Of a stretch of 64,000 nt of DNA, positions 10,882-24,163 are shown piece after piece. The position numbers were made by a program, and so were the translations under genes. The DNA comes from a virus (Duplodnaviria; Caudoviricetes), in the IMG/VR virus record IMGVR_UViG_3300032240_001498, positions 136,605 to 200,604 of that record. One strand, written 5' to 3'. The first letter of the stretch is position 1. Each line of letters starts with the position of its first letter. Under the pieces are notes generated by a model. The model did not search any database. It was not told the origin of the DNA and saw nothing but the letters and a program-made list of their open reading frames with translations.

Positions 10882-11274
10882 TTAAAATATTTCCGCCTTG
10901 CCATTGCCAAGACTGTTTACGTTGATGTAACCGACACCTCTTTGAGACATGTTAACATTTTCTTCCATTGCAACATCTCTACAAAGATCTTTGAACCAGG
11001 CGTCAACTATTGCTTCTTCAGTGTCGCCTGTGTAACCGGACTCTCTTAATTTTACTATAAAATACTCGTTCCAGTCAAGCTCAAAAAAGCCATTACGAAT
11101 GTTATCTTCGTTTATATGTGTATTTAATACCGCAACATATGGCTCTTTTTTGAGTGTAGCCGCTTCTTTTGGCGGAAGTGTTTCGGTTACGACTTCTGCA
11201 TATTTTTTAGCTTCAGCTTCCATTTCGGATTGGCTAGGCTTTCTTTTAAAAAACTGTTTGATTCTTTCTATCAT
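10882..11274 (-). CDS. Hypothetical protein (130 aa)
   Basis: It abuts the rnh start and has an ATGA overlap upstream. Confidence 0.75.
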   Translation of the reverse strand: MIERIKQFFKRKPSQSEMEAEAKKYAEVVTETLPPKEAATLKKEPYVAVLNTHINEDNIRNGFFELDWNEYFIVKLRESGYTGDTEEAIVDAWFKDLCRDVAMEENVNMSQRGVGYINVNSLGNGKAEIF

Positions 11275-11903
11275 AATTCTGTCCTTTGTGGTTTTTTCCT
11301 GTAGTCTACGTTAGAATAGTTAGTAGTAATTACCCAACGATCTTCATCGCTTTGGTTATCCTGTGTTTGATGTTGCAACCATCCGGGAAAGAATAGCACA
11401 TCACCTGTAACTGCGGCTACTGGTTGATATTCTTCGAGACTGTTGGGCTGTGTATTTTTACGTTGGATACTACGTAGATCAAAATGCGGATCTTTAAACA
11501 AAATAAATCCACCGTTTTCAGGCATTTGCAAATATGCCGCAATACTTAGACTGCACATTCCGTGAGCATGTGGAAACGTAAATCCGCCTTTCTTGTGTAG
11601 ATTAACCCAACTATTAGTGACCCAATAGGGCATGTAACTTTCTAAGAGTAATCGTCCAAACAAAACTTCAACAGCTACTTCATGTTGCCATGCATAAAAC
11701 TCTTTAAACATGGGATGATGATGAGGTGGCATTTTTTGATTAGACACAGAACTCCATGCTTGTCCGACTTCTAACTCAAGCTCGCCACCGTTCTCTGCAC
11801 CTGCCATAATTTCTCTGGCGGCATCTAAATGGGCATCAGTAAATCCATCATAGTGTGCTTTAAACACTATTGGCGGATAAGGATTGATGGCCTCAATCTT
11901 CAT
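11271..11903 (-). CDS. Putative 2OG-Fe(II) oxygenase (likely start MKIEAINP at 11903)
   Basis: The motifs are SWVN..KKGGFTFPHAH (HxH), LFFPGWLQH and RWVITTN. It has a TAATG coupling with queE. Confidence 0.75.
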   Translation of the reverse strand: MKIEAINPYPPIVFKAHYDGFTDAHLDAAREIMAGAENGGELELEVGQAWSSVSNQKMPPHHHPMFKEFYAWQHEVAVEVLFGRLLLESYMPYWVTNSWVNLHKKGGFTFPHAHGMCSLSIAAYLQMPENGGFILFKDPHFDLRSIQRKNTQPNSLEEYQPVAAVTGDVLFFPGWLQHQTQDNQSDEDRWVITTNYSNVDYRKKPQRTEL

Positions 11904-12766
11904 TAGGTTCCCCATTCGTTCTTGAAGAGTGGCACTTGTAGTCTATCACTGTATCTCCAGCCTTTTCGCATTGCCATTTCTGCCACTGCACGATTGTTAA
12001 GGGTATACACCCGCTCAACCCCACCAACAGGCATAACATACACAGGCCCTTTAAAACCTGCCGCACGATATTCTTCAACTGCTCGCTCTGCATCTACAAG
12101 GTCCTCTTCTGTTGCTACGACAAACTTTAAATATGCATAACCAATATCTTCATAACTGCATACTACTTCGGGCTTAATTGCATCTTCCCAAGGTTCTCCT
12201 GAGCAAGGCAGTTTAGCACTGATACTGAATGTTAGAGCATTACGTCCACGGTCTTTATTACCTAGTGTCCAGTTTAACAAATATTGTCTAAAATCTTTTA
12301 ATAGCCGCATTGTGCCGTTTGTTTCAAATGTAATTTCTTTTAGTCCTGCCATCTTCGGATGATCTAACAATGCAGGATATGCCTTCTGCCATCCTAACAT
12401 TGGCTCGCCGCCTGTGATAACAAGATGCTCGTCCTGCCATTCACCGTGCGGTAGCATTTCTATAATACGTTCTACAATACCATCAGTTTCGACCAATGGA
12501 CTAAGATCTTTAAAACGGGCATCCCAGCTGGCATAACTGTCACAGCCTGTGCTTACTAATGGCAGTTCATTATAGTCTTTGAATTCTAAAATACGCTCTG
12601 CAATGGCTTCACGTTCATTGGACAGTTCACCACGGGGCATACCAAAACCTTGACAGGTAAAGTTACAACCAAATGTACGCAAGAAAACAGAAGGGACGCC
12701 CATATAACGTCCTTCGCCTTGTATGCTATAAAATAATTCTGCTAATTTAATCTTGCTCATCTTCAT
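11903..12766 (-). CDS. queE: 7-carboxy-7-deazaguanine synthase QueE (radical SAM)
   Basis: It contains ELFYSIQGEG..G.PSVFLRTFGCN, CDS, VITGGEP, ETNGT, SAK, KFVV and RLQV. Confidence 0.85.
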   Translation of the reverse strand: MKMSKIKLAELFYSIQGEGRYMGVPSVFLRTFGCNFTCQGFGMPRGELSNEREAIAERILEFKDYNELPLVSTGCDSYASWDARFKDLSPLVETDGIVERIIEMLPHGEWQDEHLVITGGEPMLGWQKAYPALLDHPKMAGLKEITFETNGTMRLLKDFRQYLLNWTLGNKDRGRNALTFSISAKLPCSGEPWEDAIKPEVVCSYEDIGYAYLKFVVATEEDLVDAERAVEEYRAAGFKGPVYVMPVGGVERVYTLNNRAVAEMAMRKGWRYSDRLQVPLFKNEWGT

Positions 12767-21945: not shown

Positions 21946-22520
21946 CTTTCGTTATCCCACCAAAGCCAGCCAATTAAAATATATTTGTCGAGGTTGGCAG
22001 TAATCTGCCCTCGATGAATATGTGTGTATGCAGTTGGGAACAAAATTGTTTTGCCTTTGACTGCGTCAACAACTCTGTTCTGATGCAAAAATTCAGTTCC
22101 GCCATTTGGTACGGTATTCAAATAGGTTAAAAATGTTATTGCACGATCGCAAAACTCATGACCGCCGTCAATATGCCATGCGTGATAACCTGCACTAGGT
22201 TTATACCACTGTATTTGTGGTAAATCACGTATAGTAAACTTTCCAGCGTGTTCATATATTTTAGCATCTGTACAGTATTTGTCAATGAATCCGGACAATT
22301 CGGTATGATAATTTGGCCATTTAAAATCCTGTGGCTTGCCCAATGTTCTAGCATCACCTAAATGGAAATCAACGCTGTCTTTATAATCTGGTCTAATTTG
22401 TTCGTCCGAACCTGTAACACCTGGATTGGTTAAACCATTACTATCTGCAAGTCTAAAAAGTCTTAACAGTTCGTCACAGATAGTAATGTCTGATAATTGA
22501 TATTCAGCTATAAAGTCCAT
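21942..22520 (-). CDS. 2OG-Fe(II) oxygenase (prolyl-4-hydroxylase-like)
   Basis: It contains YHAWHID (HxD), TFLTYLN...GGTEF, LFP...THIHRG and KYIL. Confidence 0.85.
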   Translation of the reverse strand: MDFIAEYQLSDITICDELLRLFRLADSNGLTNPGVTGSDEQIRPDYKDSVDFHLGDARTLGKPQDFKWPNYHTELSGFIDKYCTDAKIYEHAGKFTIRDLPQIQWYKPSAGYHAWHIDGGHEFCDRAITFLTYLNTVPNGGTEFLHQNRVVDAVKGKTILFPTAYTHIHRGQITANLDKYILIGWLWWDNER

Positions 22521-24163
22521 TAGGCATTATCAATTTCTAATGCATCGAGTTTGTCTTCGTCAAGCTCTGGCATTGCAGTTACAGGACTTACAGTTTTATC
22601 TAACACTACTTCTTCAGTATCAAATAGACTTGTAAAGTTATTTTCGGCATTACCGCCGCGTAGGCGCATACCCATCATGTTAGACAACATGGGTTTAGCA
22701 TCTTCAATCATCTGGAAAGCTTCTGCTTTAGATTTTGTATTGAACAATTCTTCTACAAAACGGCTAAAGTAAAGAATATTACGTGGAACCCAATCTGAAT
22801 ACTGGTCGCTACCTGTTTCAGAGTCTTTGAGTTTCTTCCAATGACGCCAATCAGGTTGAGCCTTTGCAGTTTCAATGTCCATTAATTGATTAGCACGTTG
22901 TACAGCAACAATATGGCATTCAACATTATGACCCATCATTAGAGCATAAGCAAAACTATCCCAACTTGTTCTGTTTGGAATCTTATCAAGTTTATTCTTA
23001 CGGGGAACAACATGATAGTGTGCCTCATTCAAGTGATCAAATTTAACACCGCCTAATTCTGCATCAGTTTTACGAACACCTAGATCATAATAAGCAATAT
23101 CACCCATTGTTAATCTACGACCAATTGATGATTCAAACGGGAATGGAATATCCGAACCTGACAATGCTTTATTGTCCGGCGCCTTATCCATAATAACTGA
23201 CCAACGTTTAGTTGTATGTTGTGCGTTGGTATATACCAAACCGTGTGCAGTAGCAATAAACGGACTTGCACAGTCAAAACTAATTGTAAGCTCTGGATTG
23301 ATATGCTTACGGATCTGACGTTGGATCAAGGTCAAGTAACATGCCCAGTCTAATTGTGCTGTACCTAAGAAGTGAATCCAGTTCTTACCAGTTAACAATC
23401 CATCTTCACGCATGGTCATTAGCCGCTTGAGCGTAATGTCCATCTTACACATGTTAGCACCACCAAAGGCCCAACCTTCAGCTGACGGGTTTTTATTTTC
23501 ACCCCATGTTTTGTTTGGATCGCTAAATTGTTTAACACCGTTGTACCAATCTTCTGCTGAATCCCAGTCCCAACCTTGTAGCACGTTTAAGAACTTGGTT
23601 TGTCCTAGACGATTTTCTAAGAAGTATCTGTTGTTGTACTGCGTTTTTTCTAAACAATCTTCAACAGTCTTAAGACCGGTCTTTGGACTGTGTACATGGT
23701 CACAAGCCCAGGTCGGAACGTCTAGCATCATAGACCAATCAGCAGTAAGTTCAAGCCATTCTAAAATACTTTGACGAGTTTTAGTTGCACTAGGACCTTC
23801 GAAGTCTAACCAATCAAATTTAAGAACACCCTTACCGATCTGATATCCACCGGAGTCACCTAAGATCATCGTGTTGTTTCTATCACGTTGTTGGATCATC
23901 GACTCCTGCGTCAAACTTTTATTCAAGTCTAACTGTGCATGACCTGCAGAGTATAGACCATACTTGTATGTAAAATATCCTTCTTCAGGATTAAGGAAGT
24001 TCATACCTTCGATGCCGCGATCAAATCCTGCCGGAATTCGATCATCAGGAATAAACTTTTCTAATCTTTGTTTTGCAATGTATGTACTATAGAAAGAGCT
24101 AATAGCTGGCAAATAGACAGCATAGTCTTTCTGTAGTGGAGTTAAATTAACTTGTTGTTTCAT
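22520..24163 (-). CDS. DpdA/TGT-like 7-deazaguanine transglycosylase
   Basis: The TGT motifs occur in order: ILGDSGGYQ, MLDVP, NVLQG, GWAFGG, IHFLG and SFDCAS. The gene is co-located with folE, queD-like and queE. Confidence 0.75.
   Translation of the reverse strand: MKQQVNLTPLQKDYAVYLPAISSFYSTYIAKQRLEKFIPDDRIPAGFDRGIEGMNFLNPEEGYFTYKYGLYSAGHAQLDLNKSLTQESMIQQRDRNNTMILGDSGGYQIGKGVLKFDWLDFEGPSATKTRQSILEWLELTADWSMMLDVPTWACDHVHSPKTGLKTVEDCLEKTQYNNRYFLENRLGQTKFLNVLQGWDWDSAEDWYNGVKQFSDPNKTWGENKNPSAEGWAFGGANMCKMDITLKRLMTMREDGLLTGKNWIHFLGTAQLDWACYLTLIQRQIRKHINPELTISFDCASPFIATAHGLVYTNAQHTTKRWSVIMDKAPDNKALSGSDIPFPFESSIGRRLTMGDIAYYDLGVRKTDAELGGVKFDHLNEAHYHVVPRKNKLDKIPNRTSWDSFAYALMMGHNVECHIVAVQRANQLMDIETAKAQPDWRHWKKLKDSETGSDQYSDWVPRNILYFSRFVEELFNTKSKAEAFQMIEDAKPMLSNMMGMRLRGGNAENNFTSLFDTEEVVLDKTVSPVTAMPELDEDKLDALEIDNA

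What the first reader, a model, noticed from the sequence alone, without database searches (positions are those of the whole stretch)
11271..24163. 7-deazaguanine DNA-modification system fused with sugar and oxygenase tailoring genes: candidate new hypermodified G
Seen in the sequence: directly after polB and the clamp, one strand carries dpdA/TGT-like, 2OG oxygenase, a 183 aa unknown, QueD-like, an 86 aa unknown, a GT-B glycosyltransferase and UDP-glucose dehydrogenase. These are followed by folE and, further on, PRTase, cupins, HldC, HldA, HIT, queE and a second 2OG oxygenase. No QueC, QueF, ArcS or Gat-QueC is visible in the window. Established: FolE-QueD-QueE make CDG, and phage DpdA inserts 7-deazaguanines into DNA to resist restriction. 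Inference: the product may stop at the CDG level or borrow host QueC, and may then be hydroxylated and/or glycosylated with a uronic acid or heptose. I do not recognise such a base among the described ones (dPreQ0, dG+, dADG, dPreQ1, dCDG, dDG, mdPreQ1, fdPreQ1).
Basis: partly seen in the sequence, partly recalled or inferred. Interest (0 to 1): 0.92.

Follow-up and report, generated by a model that had tools for sequence, protein, structure and literature searches.

The report
Phage deazaguanine DNA genes with sugar transferase
A jumbo phage carries, next to its DNA polymerase, the genes that replace guanine in DNA with a 7-deazaguanine base, plus a sugar-adding enzyme that travels with them in several unrelated phages; this suggests, but does not prove, a sugar-bearing purine in DNA that I found in no paper.

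Summary
The gene run is real. All genes lie on the minus strand of a 200-kb jumbo-phage fragment that is about 55% complete.

- **547-aa protein:** no Pfam or PHROG match, but it folds as a tRNA-guanine-transglycosylase (TGT) barrel and keeps the catalytic aspartates. It lacks the zinc site. By profile it is related to the experimentally validated DNA transglycosylase DpdA2.
- **"QueD-like" 143-aa protein:** this is DpdL, the proposed 7-carboxy-7-deazaguanine (CDG) decarboxylase, with its LxxxHRHxF motif.
- **366-aa protein:** a GT4-type glycosyltransferase with an EX7E motif.
- **Conserved core:** of 39 related metagenomic loci with enough DNA, 39 keep the DpdA-like gene, the 183-aa unknown, DpdL and the glycosyltransferase, and 34 keep QueE.
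- **Wider co-occurrence:** the glycosyltransferase sits beside DpdL and a DpdA-type gene in Phosso, ACP17, Xanthomonas X1/BUDD, Burkholderia BCSR5 and PA5oct. PA5oct DNA resists G-site restriction enzymes.
- **Accessory genes:** the two 2OG oxygenases, the HldE-like pair and the small cupin occur in 1-3 of the 39 loci. The "HIT" call is wrong.
- **QueC:** absent here and in a 99%-complete relative.

Most likely the route is FolE/QueD/QueE, then DpdL, then insertion by the new DpdA-type enzyme, then glycosylation. The sugar step is inferred only. This scan has already reported the same pairing on at least nine other genomes.

The parts
22520..24163 (-). DpdA-type transglycosylase of a new, zinc-site-less subfamily (547 aa)
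   Evidence: AF2 pLDDT 89. The Foldseek PDB matches listed, the best 50 of 172 with E <= 0.001, are all TGT entries. VIA Z: archaeosine TGT 17.8, QTRT2 16.6, bacterial TGT 16.4, DpdA 7ui4 14.7; generic TIM barrels reach at most 11.7. D103, S104, G106, D148, H264 and D297 are invariant or nearly so in 70 diverse homologues. hhalign: ACP17 DpdA2-type 96.5%, X1 95.5%, nt-1 DpdA2 90.5%.
21394..21945 (-). Conserved 183-aa protein of unknown function; core member
   Evidence: Present in 39 of 39 informative loci and, at 31% identity, in the ACP17 cluster. AF2 pLDDT 70. No fold or family match.
20966..21397 (-). DpdL (QueD paralogue; proposed CDG decarboxylase)
   Evidence: FLGTPHRHIF matches the published LxxxHRHxF signature (PMC10516641). 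55% identical to ACP17 DpdL and 33% to phiST DpdL. The motif is invariant in the alignment.
20693..20953 (-). Conserved 86-aa protein of unknown function
   Evidence: Present in 37 of 39 informative loci, between DpdL and the glycosyltransferase. No family hit.
19612..20712 (-). GT4-type (GT-B, Glycos_transf_1-like) glycosyltransferase
   Evidence: E274-x7-E282 is invariant in 16 homologues. ESM Atlas neighbours carry PF00534/PF13692. The X1 homologue passes Pfam PF00534 (45.5 bits); the PA5oct and ACP17 homologues fall just below the cut-off. Present in 39 of 39 loci.
18836..19624 (-). Short NDP-sugar-dehydrogenase-like protein (accessory, 15 of 39 loci)
   Evidence: Pfam N-terminal and central domains and TIGR03026 positions 73-294 of 413. 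GxGxxG and GGACFPKD are present, with no C-terminal domain. Length is 256-273 aa in 16 of 17 complete homologues.
18031..18774 (-). GTP cyclohydrolase I (FolE)
   Evidence: PF01227, E 2.6e-38. Present in 22 of 39 loci at this position.
15972..16484 (-). Metal-binding cupin (170 aa); frequent member within this clade
   Evidence: PHROG 4786, E 1.7e-37. HDHP...H pattern. Present in 32 of 39 loci. Not found in the PA5oct, ACP17 or Phosso clusters.
15506..16006 (-). Purine-type phosphoribosyltransferase (accessory; also in the PA5oct cluster)
   Evidence: PF00156, E 1e-12. Closest NCBIfam model is xanthine PRTase. PRPP motif VVDDINDTG. Present in 13 of 39 loci. 29% identical to a protein in the PA5oct cluster.
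11903..12766 (-). QueE-like 7-carboxy-7-deazaguanine synthase (non-canonical)
   Evidence: PHROG 2076, E 2.5e-52. QueE NCBIfam models hit below cut-off. SIQGEG motif plus C34, C38 and C75. Present in 27 of 29 loci with at least 8 kb downstream.
21942..22520 (-). 2OG-Fe(II) oxygenase (lineage-specific accessory)
   Evidence: PF13640 and PHROG 61. Present in only 3 of 39 informative loci.
13816..15273 (-). Small cupin plus HldE-domain-II-like adenylyltransferase plus HldE-domain-I-like kinase (lineage-specific accessory)
   Evidence: Present in 2-3 of 39 loci. No GmhA in the 200 kb held.
11271..11915 (-). Second 2OG-Fe(II) oxygenase (PF13759/TIGR02466 type; accessory)
   Evidence: Present in 1 of 39 informative loci.

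Best explanation
This is a QueC-less, DpdL-type 7-deazaguanine DNA-modification module in the replication region of a jumbo phage related to PA5oct.

Proposed steps:
1. FolE, a QueD encoded elsewhere in the genome, and a non-canonical QueE turn GTP into 7-carboxy-7-deazaguanine. This follows from the established pathway.
2. DpdL converts it, probably by decarboxylation, to 7-deazaguanine. This is a published proposal that has never been shown.
3. The 547-aa enzyme, a divergent zinc-site-less member of the TGT superfamily related to DpdA2, exchanges guanine in phage DNA for the deaza base, through a covalent intermediate on Asp297. This is inferred from conserved catalytic residues and from homology.
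4. The GT4-type glycosyltransferase is locked into the module in several unrelated phages. It adds a sugar from a nucleotide sugar to the base, before or after insertion. This is inferred from co-occurrence only, and the attachment atom is unknown.

The PRTase may recycle released guanine or activate the base. In this sub-lineage the short dehydrogenase, the oxygenases and the HldE-like genes are optional extras. The purpose is protection of phage DNA from restriction.
For: - **Fold and catalytic motifs of the 547-aa protein:**
- **Profile homology to DpdA2-type proteins:**. nt-1 DpdA2 (YP_008125322) is the experimentally validated enzyme. ACP17's protein is 34-36% identical to the nt-1 and VH7D proteins.
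- **DpdL:** motif and homology to ACP17 and phiST DpdL.
- **Pathway genes:** FolE and QueE are present. A true QueD (PTPS with CxxxHGY) is encoded elsewhere in four related records. A 99%-complete relative has no QueC.
- **Glycosyltransferase identity:**
- **Co-occurrence within the clade:** 39 of 39 loci.
- **Co-occurrence outside the clade:** the glycosyltransferase lies within about 3 kb of DpdL and a DpdA-type gene in PA5oct, ACP17, X1 and BCSR5, and beside DpdL in Phosso, whose DpdA-like gene lies about 170 kb away. 17 of 22 phage records with a glycosyltransferase homologue also have DpdL.
- **Other context:** a 31%-identical homologue of the 547-aa protein in Vibrio phage 2.275.O sits beside QueF, YhhQ, QueC and FolE.
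Against: - No activity has been measured for any protein of this family.
- DpdL's decarboxylase activity failed to show in E. coli.
- 7-Deazaguanine offers no obvious hydroxyl for a sugar.
- phiST, which has DpdL but no glycosyltransferase, carries plain dDG.
- The glycosyltransferase itself has no Pfam hit, and its fold was not modelled.
- The 39 loci belong to one clade and are not independent.
- In Phosso the 547-aa homologue lies 170 kb from the glycosyltransferase/DpdL cluster.
- QueD is not in the 200 kb held.
- Structure alone does not separate DNA-acting from tRNA-acting TGTs.
Confidence: 0.6

Rival explanations
1. The module makes an unglycosylated base (dDG or dCDG, as in phiST or STSV-2). 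The glycosyltransferase serves another target, such as a host envelope glycan, a protein or a small molecule, and is only genetically linked.
For: phiST with DpdL carries plain dDG. GT4 enzymes usually act on lipids and polysaccharides (my own knowledge). 12 DpdL-positive phage records have no glycosyltransferase homologue. The deaza base has no obvious acceptor hydroxyl.
Against: The glycosyltransferase sits between or beside DpdA, DpdL and QueE in at least five unrelated lineages and in 39 of 39 clade loci. Five phages carry distant glycosyltransferase homologues (24% identity) without DpdL; no closer homologue occurs without it.
Confidence: 0.25
2. The TGT-like enzyme and the glycosyltransferase modify tRNA, giving a queuosine-like and possibly glycosylated wobble base as in eukaryotic manQ/galQ, to tune translation during infection. 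DNA is not the target.
For: The fold is equally close to tRNA TGTs. Glycosylated queuosine exists in eukaryotic tRNA (my own knowledge).
Against: - Profile homology is to DNA-acting DpdA2 and is only marginal to bacterial TGT (E 0.55).
- The zinc subdomain is absent.
- The gene lies between the polB/clamp genes and RNase H.
- The window has no tRNA genes.
- PA5oct DNA itself is restriction-resistant at G sites.
- No QueA, QueG or QueH was seen.
Confidence: 0.05
3. The deaza base enters DNA before replication. The XGPRT-like PRTase makes the ribonucleotide, which is reduced and phosphorylated and then used by the phage polymerase. The TGT-like protein has a secondary or repair role.
For: A purine-type PRTase lies in the cluster here and in PA5oct. 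The cluster is adjacent to polB.
Against: The PRTase is present in only 13 of 39 loci, whereas the TGT-like gene is universal. Published work argues that all known deazaguanine DNA modifications are post-replicative and made by DpdA. No dGTP-depleting enzyme was identified here.
Confidence: 0.1

Closest known systems
[quoted passage not shown]
   Same: FolE, QueD, QueE, DpdL and a DpdA-type transglycosylase, with no QueC. The DpdL motif LxxxHRHxF is shared. The cluster lies next to the DNA polymerase. ACP17 also carries homologues of the glycosyltransferase (39% identity) and of the 183-aa unknown (31% identity).
   Different: The transglycosylase here is a much longer (547 aa), BLAST-undetectable relative. 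A glycosyltransferase, the 183-aa and 86-aa unknowns and a cupin are conserved parts. phiST has no glycosyltransferase, and its DNA carries plain dDG.
DpdA2 of Vibrio phages nt-1 and VH7D (validated DNA transglycosylases; PMC6884629, PMC10516641)
   Same: TGT-fold enzyme with DSGGxQ, (L/F)D..P, H.LG and (F/Y)D motifs. Similarity is detectable by hhalign (90.5%, E 1.3e-6) and by predicted structure (BFVD R9TGF0, E 2e-9).
   Different: There is no BLAST-level similarity. The protein here has about 80-120 extra residues. It partners with DpdL and a glycosyltransferase rather than with QueC/ArcS/QueF. Its substrate is unknown.
PA5oct-like (Wroclawvirus) cluster of Pseudomonas jumbo phages
   Same: Same order: polB, clamp-like gene, 540-aa TGT-like gene (43% identity), glycosyltransferase (39%), DpdL (55%), PRTase, QueE, then RNase H. 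PA5oct DNA is experimentally resistant at G-containing sites (PMC12191111).
   Different: The PA5oct cluster lacks the 183-aa unknown, the cupin, the short dehydrogenase, FolE, the oxygenases and the HldE-like genes. The preprint named QueE and a PTPS, but neither a transglycosylase nor a glycosyltransferase.
T4 alpha/beta-glucosyltransferases and other phage DNA glycosyltransferases acting on 5-hydroxymethylpyrimidines
   Same: A phage GT-B enzyme proposed to add a sugar to a non-canonical DNA base as protection against restriction.
   Different: Those enzymes act on a hydroxymethyl group of a pyrimidine. Here the presumed acceptor is a deazapurine with no known hydroxyl, and no sequence similarity to them was found or tested.

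Membership tests
TGT superfamily / DpdA DNA transglycosylases | TGT-type TIM-barrel fold | tested here: met
   The Foldseek PDB matches listed (best 50 of 172 with E <= 0.001) are all TGT entries. VIA Z is 14.7-17.8 for archaeosine TGT, QTRT2, bacterial TGT and DpdA 7ui4, against at most 11.7 for other barrels.
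TGT superfamily / DpdA DNA transglycosylases | Catalytic aspartates: DSGGxQ (Z. mobilis D102), substrate Asp (D156) and nucleophile Asp in FDC (D280) | tested here: met
   D103, D148 and D297 are invariant or nearly so in 70 homologues. D103 and D148 align to TGT D102 and D156 in the HMMER alignment. D297 aligns to the YDS motif of DpdA2-type proteins. The D297/D280 equivalence to TGT is by eye.
TGT superfamily / DpdA DNA transglycosylases | Zinc site CxCxxC...H of bacterial and archaeal TGT | tested here: not met
   The sequence has no CxCxxC, and no invariant Cys occurs in the family. Only the HN helix is kept (H412, N413).
TGT superfamily / DpdA DNA transglycosylases | Sequence homology to an experimentally validated DpdA | tested here: met
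   hhalign to nt-1 DpdA2 gives 90.5%, E 1.3e-6, and to ACP17 and X1 DpdA2-type proteins 96.5% and 95.5%. There is no Pfam TGT hit.
TGT superfamily / DpdA DNA transglycosylases | Exchange of guanine in DNA for a 7-deazaguanine base | not testable with these tools
   The only indirect evidence is PA5oct's resistance to restriction at G sites.
DpdL (QueD paralogue, proposed CDG decarboxylase) | LxxxHRHxF in place of QueD's CxxxHGH | tested here: met
   L46-G-T-P-H50-R-H52-I-F54. L46, H50, H52 and F54 are invariant in 8 sequences. The motif definition comes from PMC10516641.
DpdL (QueD paralogue, proposed CDG decarboxylase) | Homology to phiST CGPG_00067 and ACP17 DpdL; found in genomes with DpdA, FolE and QueE but no QueC | tested here: met
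   54.6% identical to ACP17 and 32.8% to phiST (E 2e-8). No QueC in the own 200 kb or in 99%-complete G001.
DpdL (QueD paralogue, proposed CDG decarboxylase) | Decarboxylation of CDG to 7-deazaguanine | not testable with these tools
   This is also unproven in the literature.
GT4 / Glycos_transf_1 (GT-B) glycosyltransferases | Match to Pfam PF00534 / PF13692 | tested here: inconclusive
   The protein itself has no hit. The X1 homologue (26% identity, E 6e-25) passes at 45.5 bits. The PA5oct and ACP17 homologues fall below the cut-off over the same region. ESM Atlas neighbours carry these families.
GT4 / Glycos_transf_1 (GT-B) glycosyltransferases | EX7E motif in the C-terminal Rossmann domain | tested here: met
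   E274 and E282 are invariant in 16 homologues. That this motif marks GT4 is my own knowledge.
GT4 / Glycos_transf_1 (GT-B) glycosyltransferases | Two-Rossmann GT-B fold | not tested
QueE (7-carboxy-7-deazaguanine synthase) | Radical-SAM core with three cluster cysteines and the N-terminal QGEG substrate motif; match to QueE models | tested here: inconclusive
   PHROG 2076, E 2.5e-52. Five QueE NCBIfam models hit at 42-52 bits, far below their cut-offs. SIQGEG plus C34, C38 and C75 with unusual spacing.
UDP-glucose/GDP-mannose dehydrogenase | NAD-binding GxGxxG, catalytic Cys and a C-terminal UDP-sugar-binding domain | tested here: not met
   GxGxxG and GGACFPKD are present, but the protein ends after the central domain (TIGR03026 positions 73-294 of 413). 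The short form is conserved.
HldE (heptose-7-P kinase / heptose-1-P adenylyltransferase) | Score above the equivalog cut-offs; GmhA and GmhB partners | tested here: not met
   rfaE_dom_II scores 124.5 bits against a cut-off of 181.5, and rfaE_dom_I 133.6 against 345. No SIS/GmhA in the own 200 kb.

The most novel reading that the evidence does not exclude
These phages put a glycosylated 7-deazaguanine into their DNA. To my knowledge it would be the first sugar-bearing purine described in any DNA. It would be made by a new zinc-less DpdA subfamily plus a dedicated GT4 enzyme. In this particular lineage the sugar or base may be further oxidised by the short dehydrogenase that lacks a UDP-binding domain, which might therefore act on a sugar already attached to the base, and by a 2OG oxygenase.
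Probability: 0.4. Interest if true: 0.85.

Novelty: new variant of a known kind. Interest (0 to 1): 0.74.

Why it matters
- **Chemistry:** every known glycosylated DNA base is a pyrimidine derivative, and the eight known DNA deazaguanines carry no sugar. A sugar on a deazapurine would be new nucleic-acid chemistry. It would also be a new way to escape restriction, CRISPR and modification-sensing nucleases.
- **Testability:** cultured phages carry the same gene pair (PA5oct and relatives, ACP17, X1, BCSR5, Phosso), so the question can be put to the test directly. PA5oct already has an unexplained modified G.
- **Abundance:** the 547-aa family is very common in metagenomes. More than 7,000 proteins matched at E <= 0.001 among 8,000 scored, and there are 864 clusters at 50% identity. 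Pfam, PHROGs and published DpdA searches all miss it. Recognising it would let the hidden modification status of many jumbo phages be predicted. That matters for sequencing bias and for the choice of therapeutic phages.

Tried and rejected
- **547-aa protein by sequence:** Pfam, PHROGs and a PDB sequence search gave nothing significant. A profile against PDB gave only E 0.55 to TGT.
- **183-aa unknown:** ESM Atlas found no hit. A profile against PDB found nothing. The AF2 model (pLDDT 70) found no fold above background: best Z 6.9 to RsbS, with QueE at Z 5.6-5.8, which is within noise. It is not related to the PA5oct 172-aa protein or to Phosso's 'glycosylase'.
- **Glycosyltransferase profile against PDB:** the best hit was WlaC at E 0.66, which is not significant.
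- **Distant representatives:** look-ups of P0170 and P0234 gave only 2-kb contigs with no useful neighbours.
- **Weak QueC-like hits in related records:** these are sporadic PP-loop ORFs. They are absent from the own contig and from the complete relative, so I rejected them as the missing QueC.
- **A hydroxymethyl-pyrimidine target for the glycosyltransferase:** a ThyA-type gene occurs in only one of three records. I did not pursue this.
- **Promoter and terminator scan:** promoter-like sites were at chance level (47 against 50.5 expected); terminator-like sites were somewhat above the shuffle mean (18 against 10.6, sd 3.3) but did not mark out separate units.
- **'HIT' reading of the 226-aa ORF:** rejected.
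- **Complex prediction:** not run, because I make no claim that the proteins bind each other.

Full report
**What is there.** The window is the last 64 kb of a 200.6-kb IMG/VR phage record, estimated 55% complete. From 27637 down to 11271 every gene is on the minus strand, with short or overlapping junctions.
- polB;
- two 2OG-Fe(II) oxygenases;
- an NDP-sugar-dehydrogenase-like protein;
- FolE;
- a type I PRTase closest to xanthine PRTase;
- two cupins;
- an HldE-domain-II-like adenylyltransferase and an HldE-domain-I-like kinase, both below equivalog cut-offs;
- a QueE-like radical-SAM enzyme.

The 226-aa "HIT" has no HIT motif and no family.

**The 547-aa protein.** It has no Pfam, PHROG or PDB sequence match. 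The family is very large in metagenomes: more than 7,000 proteins matched at E <= 0.001, and there are 864 clusters at 50% identity.

An alignment of 70 diverse members shows D103, S104, G106, P150, H264 and D297 invariant, and G105, Q108 and D148 nearly so. These fall in DSGGYQ, LDxP, HFLG and FDC, which are the hallmark blocks of tRNA-guanine transglycosylases. A profile search of PDB aligns the first three blocks to Z. mobilis TGT D102, D156 and Q203, although only at E 0.55.

The AlphaFold model is confident (pLDDT 89, pTM 0.90):
- Foldseek finds 172 PDB matches with E <= 0.001, and the 50 best, which are the ones listed, are all TGT entries.
- An exhaustive structural search ranks archaeosine TGT (Z 17.8), QTRT2 (16.6), bacterial TGT (16.4), the DNA preQ0 insertase DpdA 7ui4 (14.7) and Cap10 (13.8) above all generic TIM barrels, which reach at most 11.7.
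- Among viral models the nearest include the Vibrio phage 2.275.O homologue, a "tRNA guanine transglycosylase" of Achromobacter phage Motura, and nt-1 R9TGF0.

The zinc motif CxCxxC is absent.

Profile-profile comparison links the family to DpdA2-type proteins:

| Protein compared | Probability | E-value |
|---|---|---|
| ACP17 424-aa protein | 96.5% | 8e-10 |
| X1 "queuine tRNA-ribosyltransferase" | 95.5% | 1.5e-8 |
| nt-1 DpdA2 (YP_008125322) | 90.5% | 1.3e-6 |

The ACP17 protein is itself 34-36% identical to the nt-1 and VH7D proteins. DpdA2 of both those phages inserts deazaguanines into DNA in E. coli (PMC10516641). I therefore read the 547-aa protein as a new, long, zinc-less branch of the DpdA-type DNA transglycosylases. 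Its activity is inferred.

**The 143-aa protein is DpdL, not QueD.** It reads FLGTPHRHIF. This is exactly the LxxxHRHxF signature that Cui et al. give for DpdL, the QueD paralogue proposed to decarboxylate CDG to 7-deazaguanine in QueC-less phages. It is 55% identical to ACP17 DpdL and 33% to phiST DpdL, and the motif is invariant across clade members and PA5oct. An earlier first-reader note on this genome pointed me to this reading, and I checked it myself. A genuine PTPS/QueD with the catalytic Cys is encoded elsewhere in four related records, but not in the 200 kb held here. QueC is absent here and in a 99%-complete relative. The weak QueC-like hits in other relatives are sporadic PP-loop ORFs.

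**The glycosyltransferase.** The 366-aa protein has no Pfam hit of its own. The evidence for its identity is:
- its ESM Atlas neighbours carry Glycos_transf_1;
- E274-x7-E282, an EX7E motif, is invariant;
- its Xanthomonas X1 homologue passes PF00534;
- the PA5oct and ACP17 homologues fall just short of the cut-off over the same segment.

I did not model its fold.

**Core versus accessory.** I compared the window's proteins with 80 related IMG/VR loci. The table counts the 39 loci that have at least 5 kb downstream of the DpdA-like gene.

| Gene | Loci (of 39) |
|---|---|
| 183-aa unknown | 39 |
| DpdL | 39 |
| Glycosyltransferase | 39 |
| 86-aa unknown | 37 |
| QueE | 34 |
| 170-aa cupin | 32 |
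| FolE | 22 |
| Short dehydrogenase | 15 |
| PRTase | 13 |
| First 2OG oxygenase | 3 |
| Small cupin and HldE-like genes | 2-3 |
| Second 2OG oxygenase | 1 |

These loci are one clade and are not independent.

**Independent lineages.** These give the stronger evidence.
- **PA5oct-like phages** have polB, a clamp-like gene, a 540-aa homologue (43% identity), the glycosyltransferase (39%), DpdL (55%), a PRTase and QueE in the same order.
- **ACP17** has a homologue of the 183-aa unknown, a DpdA2-type gene, the glycosyltransferase, DpdL and QueE.
- **X1 and BCSR5** have the glycosyltransferase next to a DpdA-type gene, with DpdL and QueE nearby.
- **Phosso** has DpdL, the glycosyltransferase, FolE and QueE beside polB and the clamp. 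Its 549-aa homologue lies 170 kb away.

Of 22 phage records with a glycosyltransferase homologue, 17 also have DpdL. The five without it are the most distant homologues, at 24% identity. In Vibrio phage 2.275.O a 31%-identical relative of the 547-aa protein sits with QueF, YhhQ, QueC and FolE. This fits a general deazaguanine-inserting role for the family.

**Outside evidence.** A 2025 preprint shows that PA5oct virion DNA resists several enzymes with G in their sites. It is also restricted by nucleases that sense hypermodified G. The authors noted QueE and a PTPS, but named no transglycosylase or glycosyltransferase and did not identify the base (PMC12191111). I found no paper describing a glycosylated deazaguanine in DNA.

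**Mechanism and weak points.** The steps to CDG follow from the established pathway. The DpdL step is a published proposal that failed in E. coli. Insertion by the DpdA-like enzyme is inferred from homology. The sugar step rests only on gene linkage. The chemical problem is the acceptor, because 7-deazaguanine has no hydroxyl. Possible solutions are C-glycosylation at C7, an ester on CDG, or prior hydroxylation, perhaps by the conserved cupin. None can be tested here.

The short dehydrogenase keeps GxGxxG and the catalytic GGxCFPKD but lacks the UDP-binding domain. Sixteen of its 17 complete homologues are 256-273 aa long. It is a real gene with an unusual substrate.

**Rivals.** I considered three rivals: an unglycosylated base with an unrelated glycosyltransferase; tRNA rather than DNA as the target; and pre-replicative incorporation through the PRTase. 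They are weighed in the rival section.

**Earlier work in this scan.** The scan has already reported the same "glycosyltransferase inside a deazaguanine cluster" on at least nine other genomes, with follow-ups that reached similar conclusions. My conclusions rest on my own tests.

**Verdict.** The system is a new variant of a known kind: DpdL-type deazaguanine DNA modification, with a new DpdA branch and a dedicated glycosyltransferase. The chemical novelty is plausible but unproven.

Noticed in passing
window 18836-19624 (-): An NDP-sugar-dehydrogenase-like protein of 262 aa keeps GxGxxG and the catalytic GGACFPKD but lacks the C-terminal UDP-sugar-binding domain. Sixteen of 17 complete homologues, down to 53% identity, have the same short length (256-273 aa). 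It looks like a selected short form whose substrate is probably not a UDP-sugar.
   Followed up: partly
window 21394-21945 (-); also L092:6243-6725: A 183-aa protein is present in all 39 informative related loci and, at 31% identity, in the ACP17 deazaguanine cluster. It has no family, no ESM Atlas neighbour and no fold match (model pLDDT 70). It is an unexplained core part of the module.
   Followed up: yes
L055:10357-10734, L072:12141-12518, compared with window 20966-21397: Two sequence types of DpdL occupy the same position in the clade, at 65-95% and 35-40% identity to the window's copy. Both keep L..HRH.F.
   Followed up: partly
L083:1180-1800; L085:1093-1800 (related records G005, G002): Some related phages encode 206-235-aa PP-loop proteins (SGGxDS) with a C-terminal Cys cluster that weakly match QueC. 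They lie far from the cluster and are absent from the own contig and from a 99%-complete relative.
   Followed up: partly
window 12977-13657 (-): A 226-aa ORF inside the metabolic gene run has an IGYQAGY-type repeat and weak PHROG hits to tail-spike and virion proteins. It is not a HIT hydrolase.
   Followed up: partly
window 14516-14577: The HldE-domain-II-like and domain-I-like genes overlap by 62 nt and stand in the reverse order to fused HldE. No GmhA was found in the 200 kb held.
   Followed up: partly
L087:11968-13617 and L093:8992-10463 (Sinorhizobium phage Phosso): In Phosso the 549-aa DpdA-like gene lies beside the primase and DnaB, about 170 kb from the DpdL/glycosyltransferase/FolE/QueE cluster, which itself lies beside polB and the clamp. 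The module can therefore be split.
   Followed up: no
L098:6332-6865 (Xanthomonas phage X1): A PAPS-reductase-family PP-loop protein sits between FolE and the glycosyltransferase/DpdA/DpdL genes in X1. It may be another lineage-specific tailoring step.
   Followed up: no
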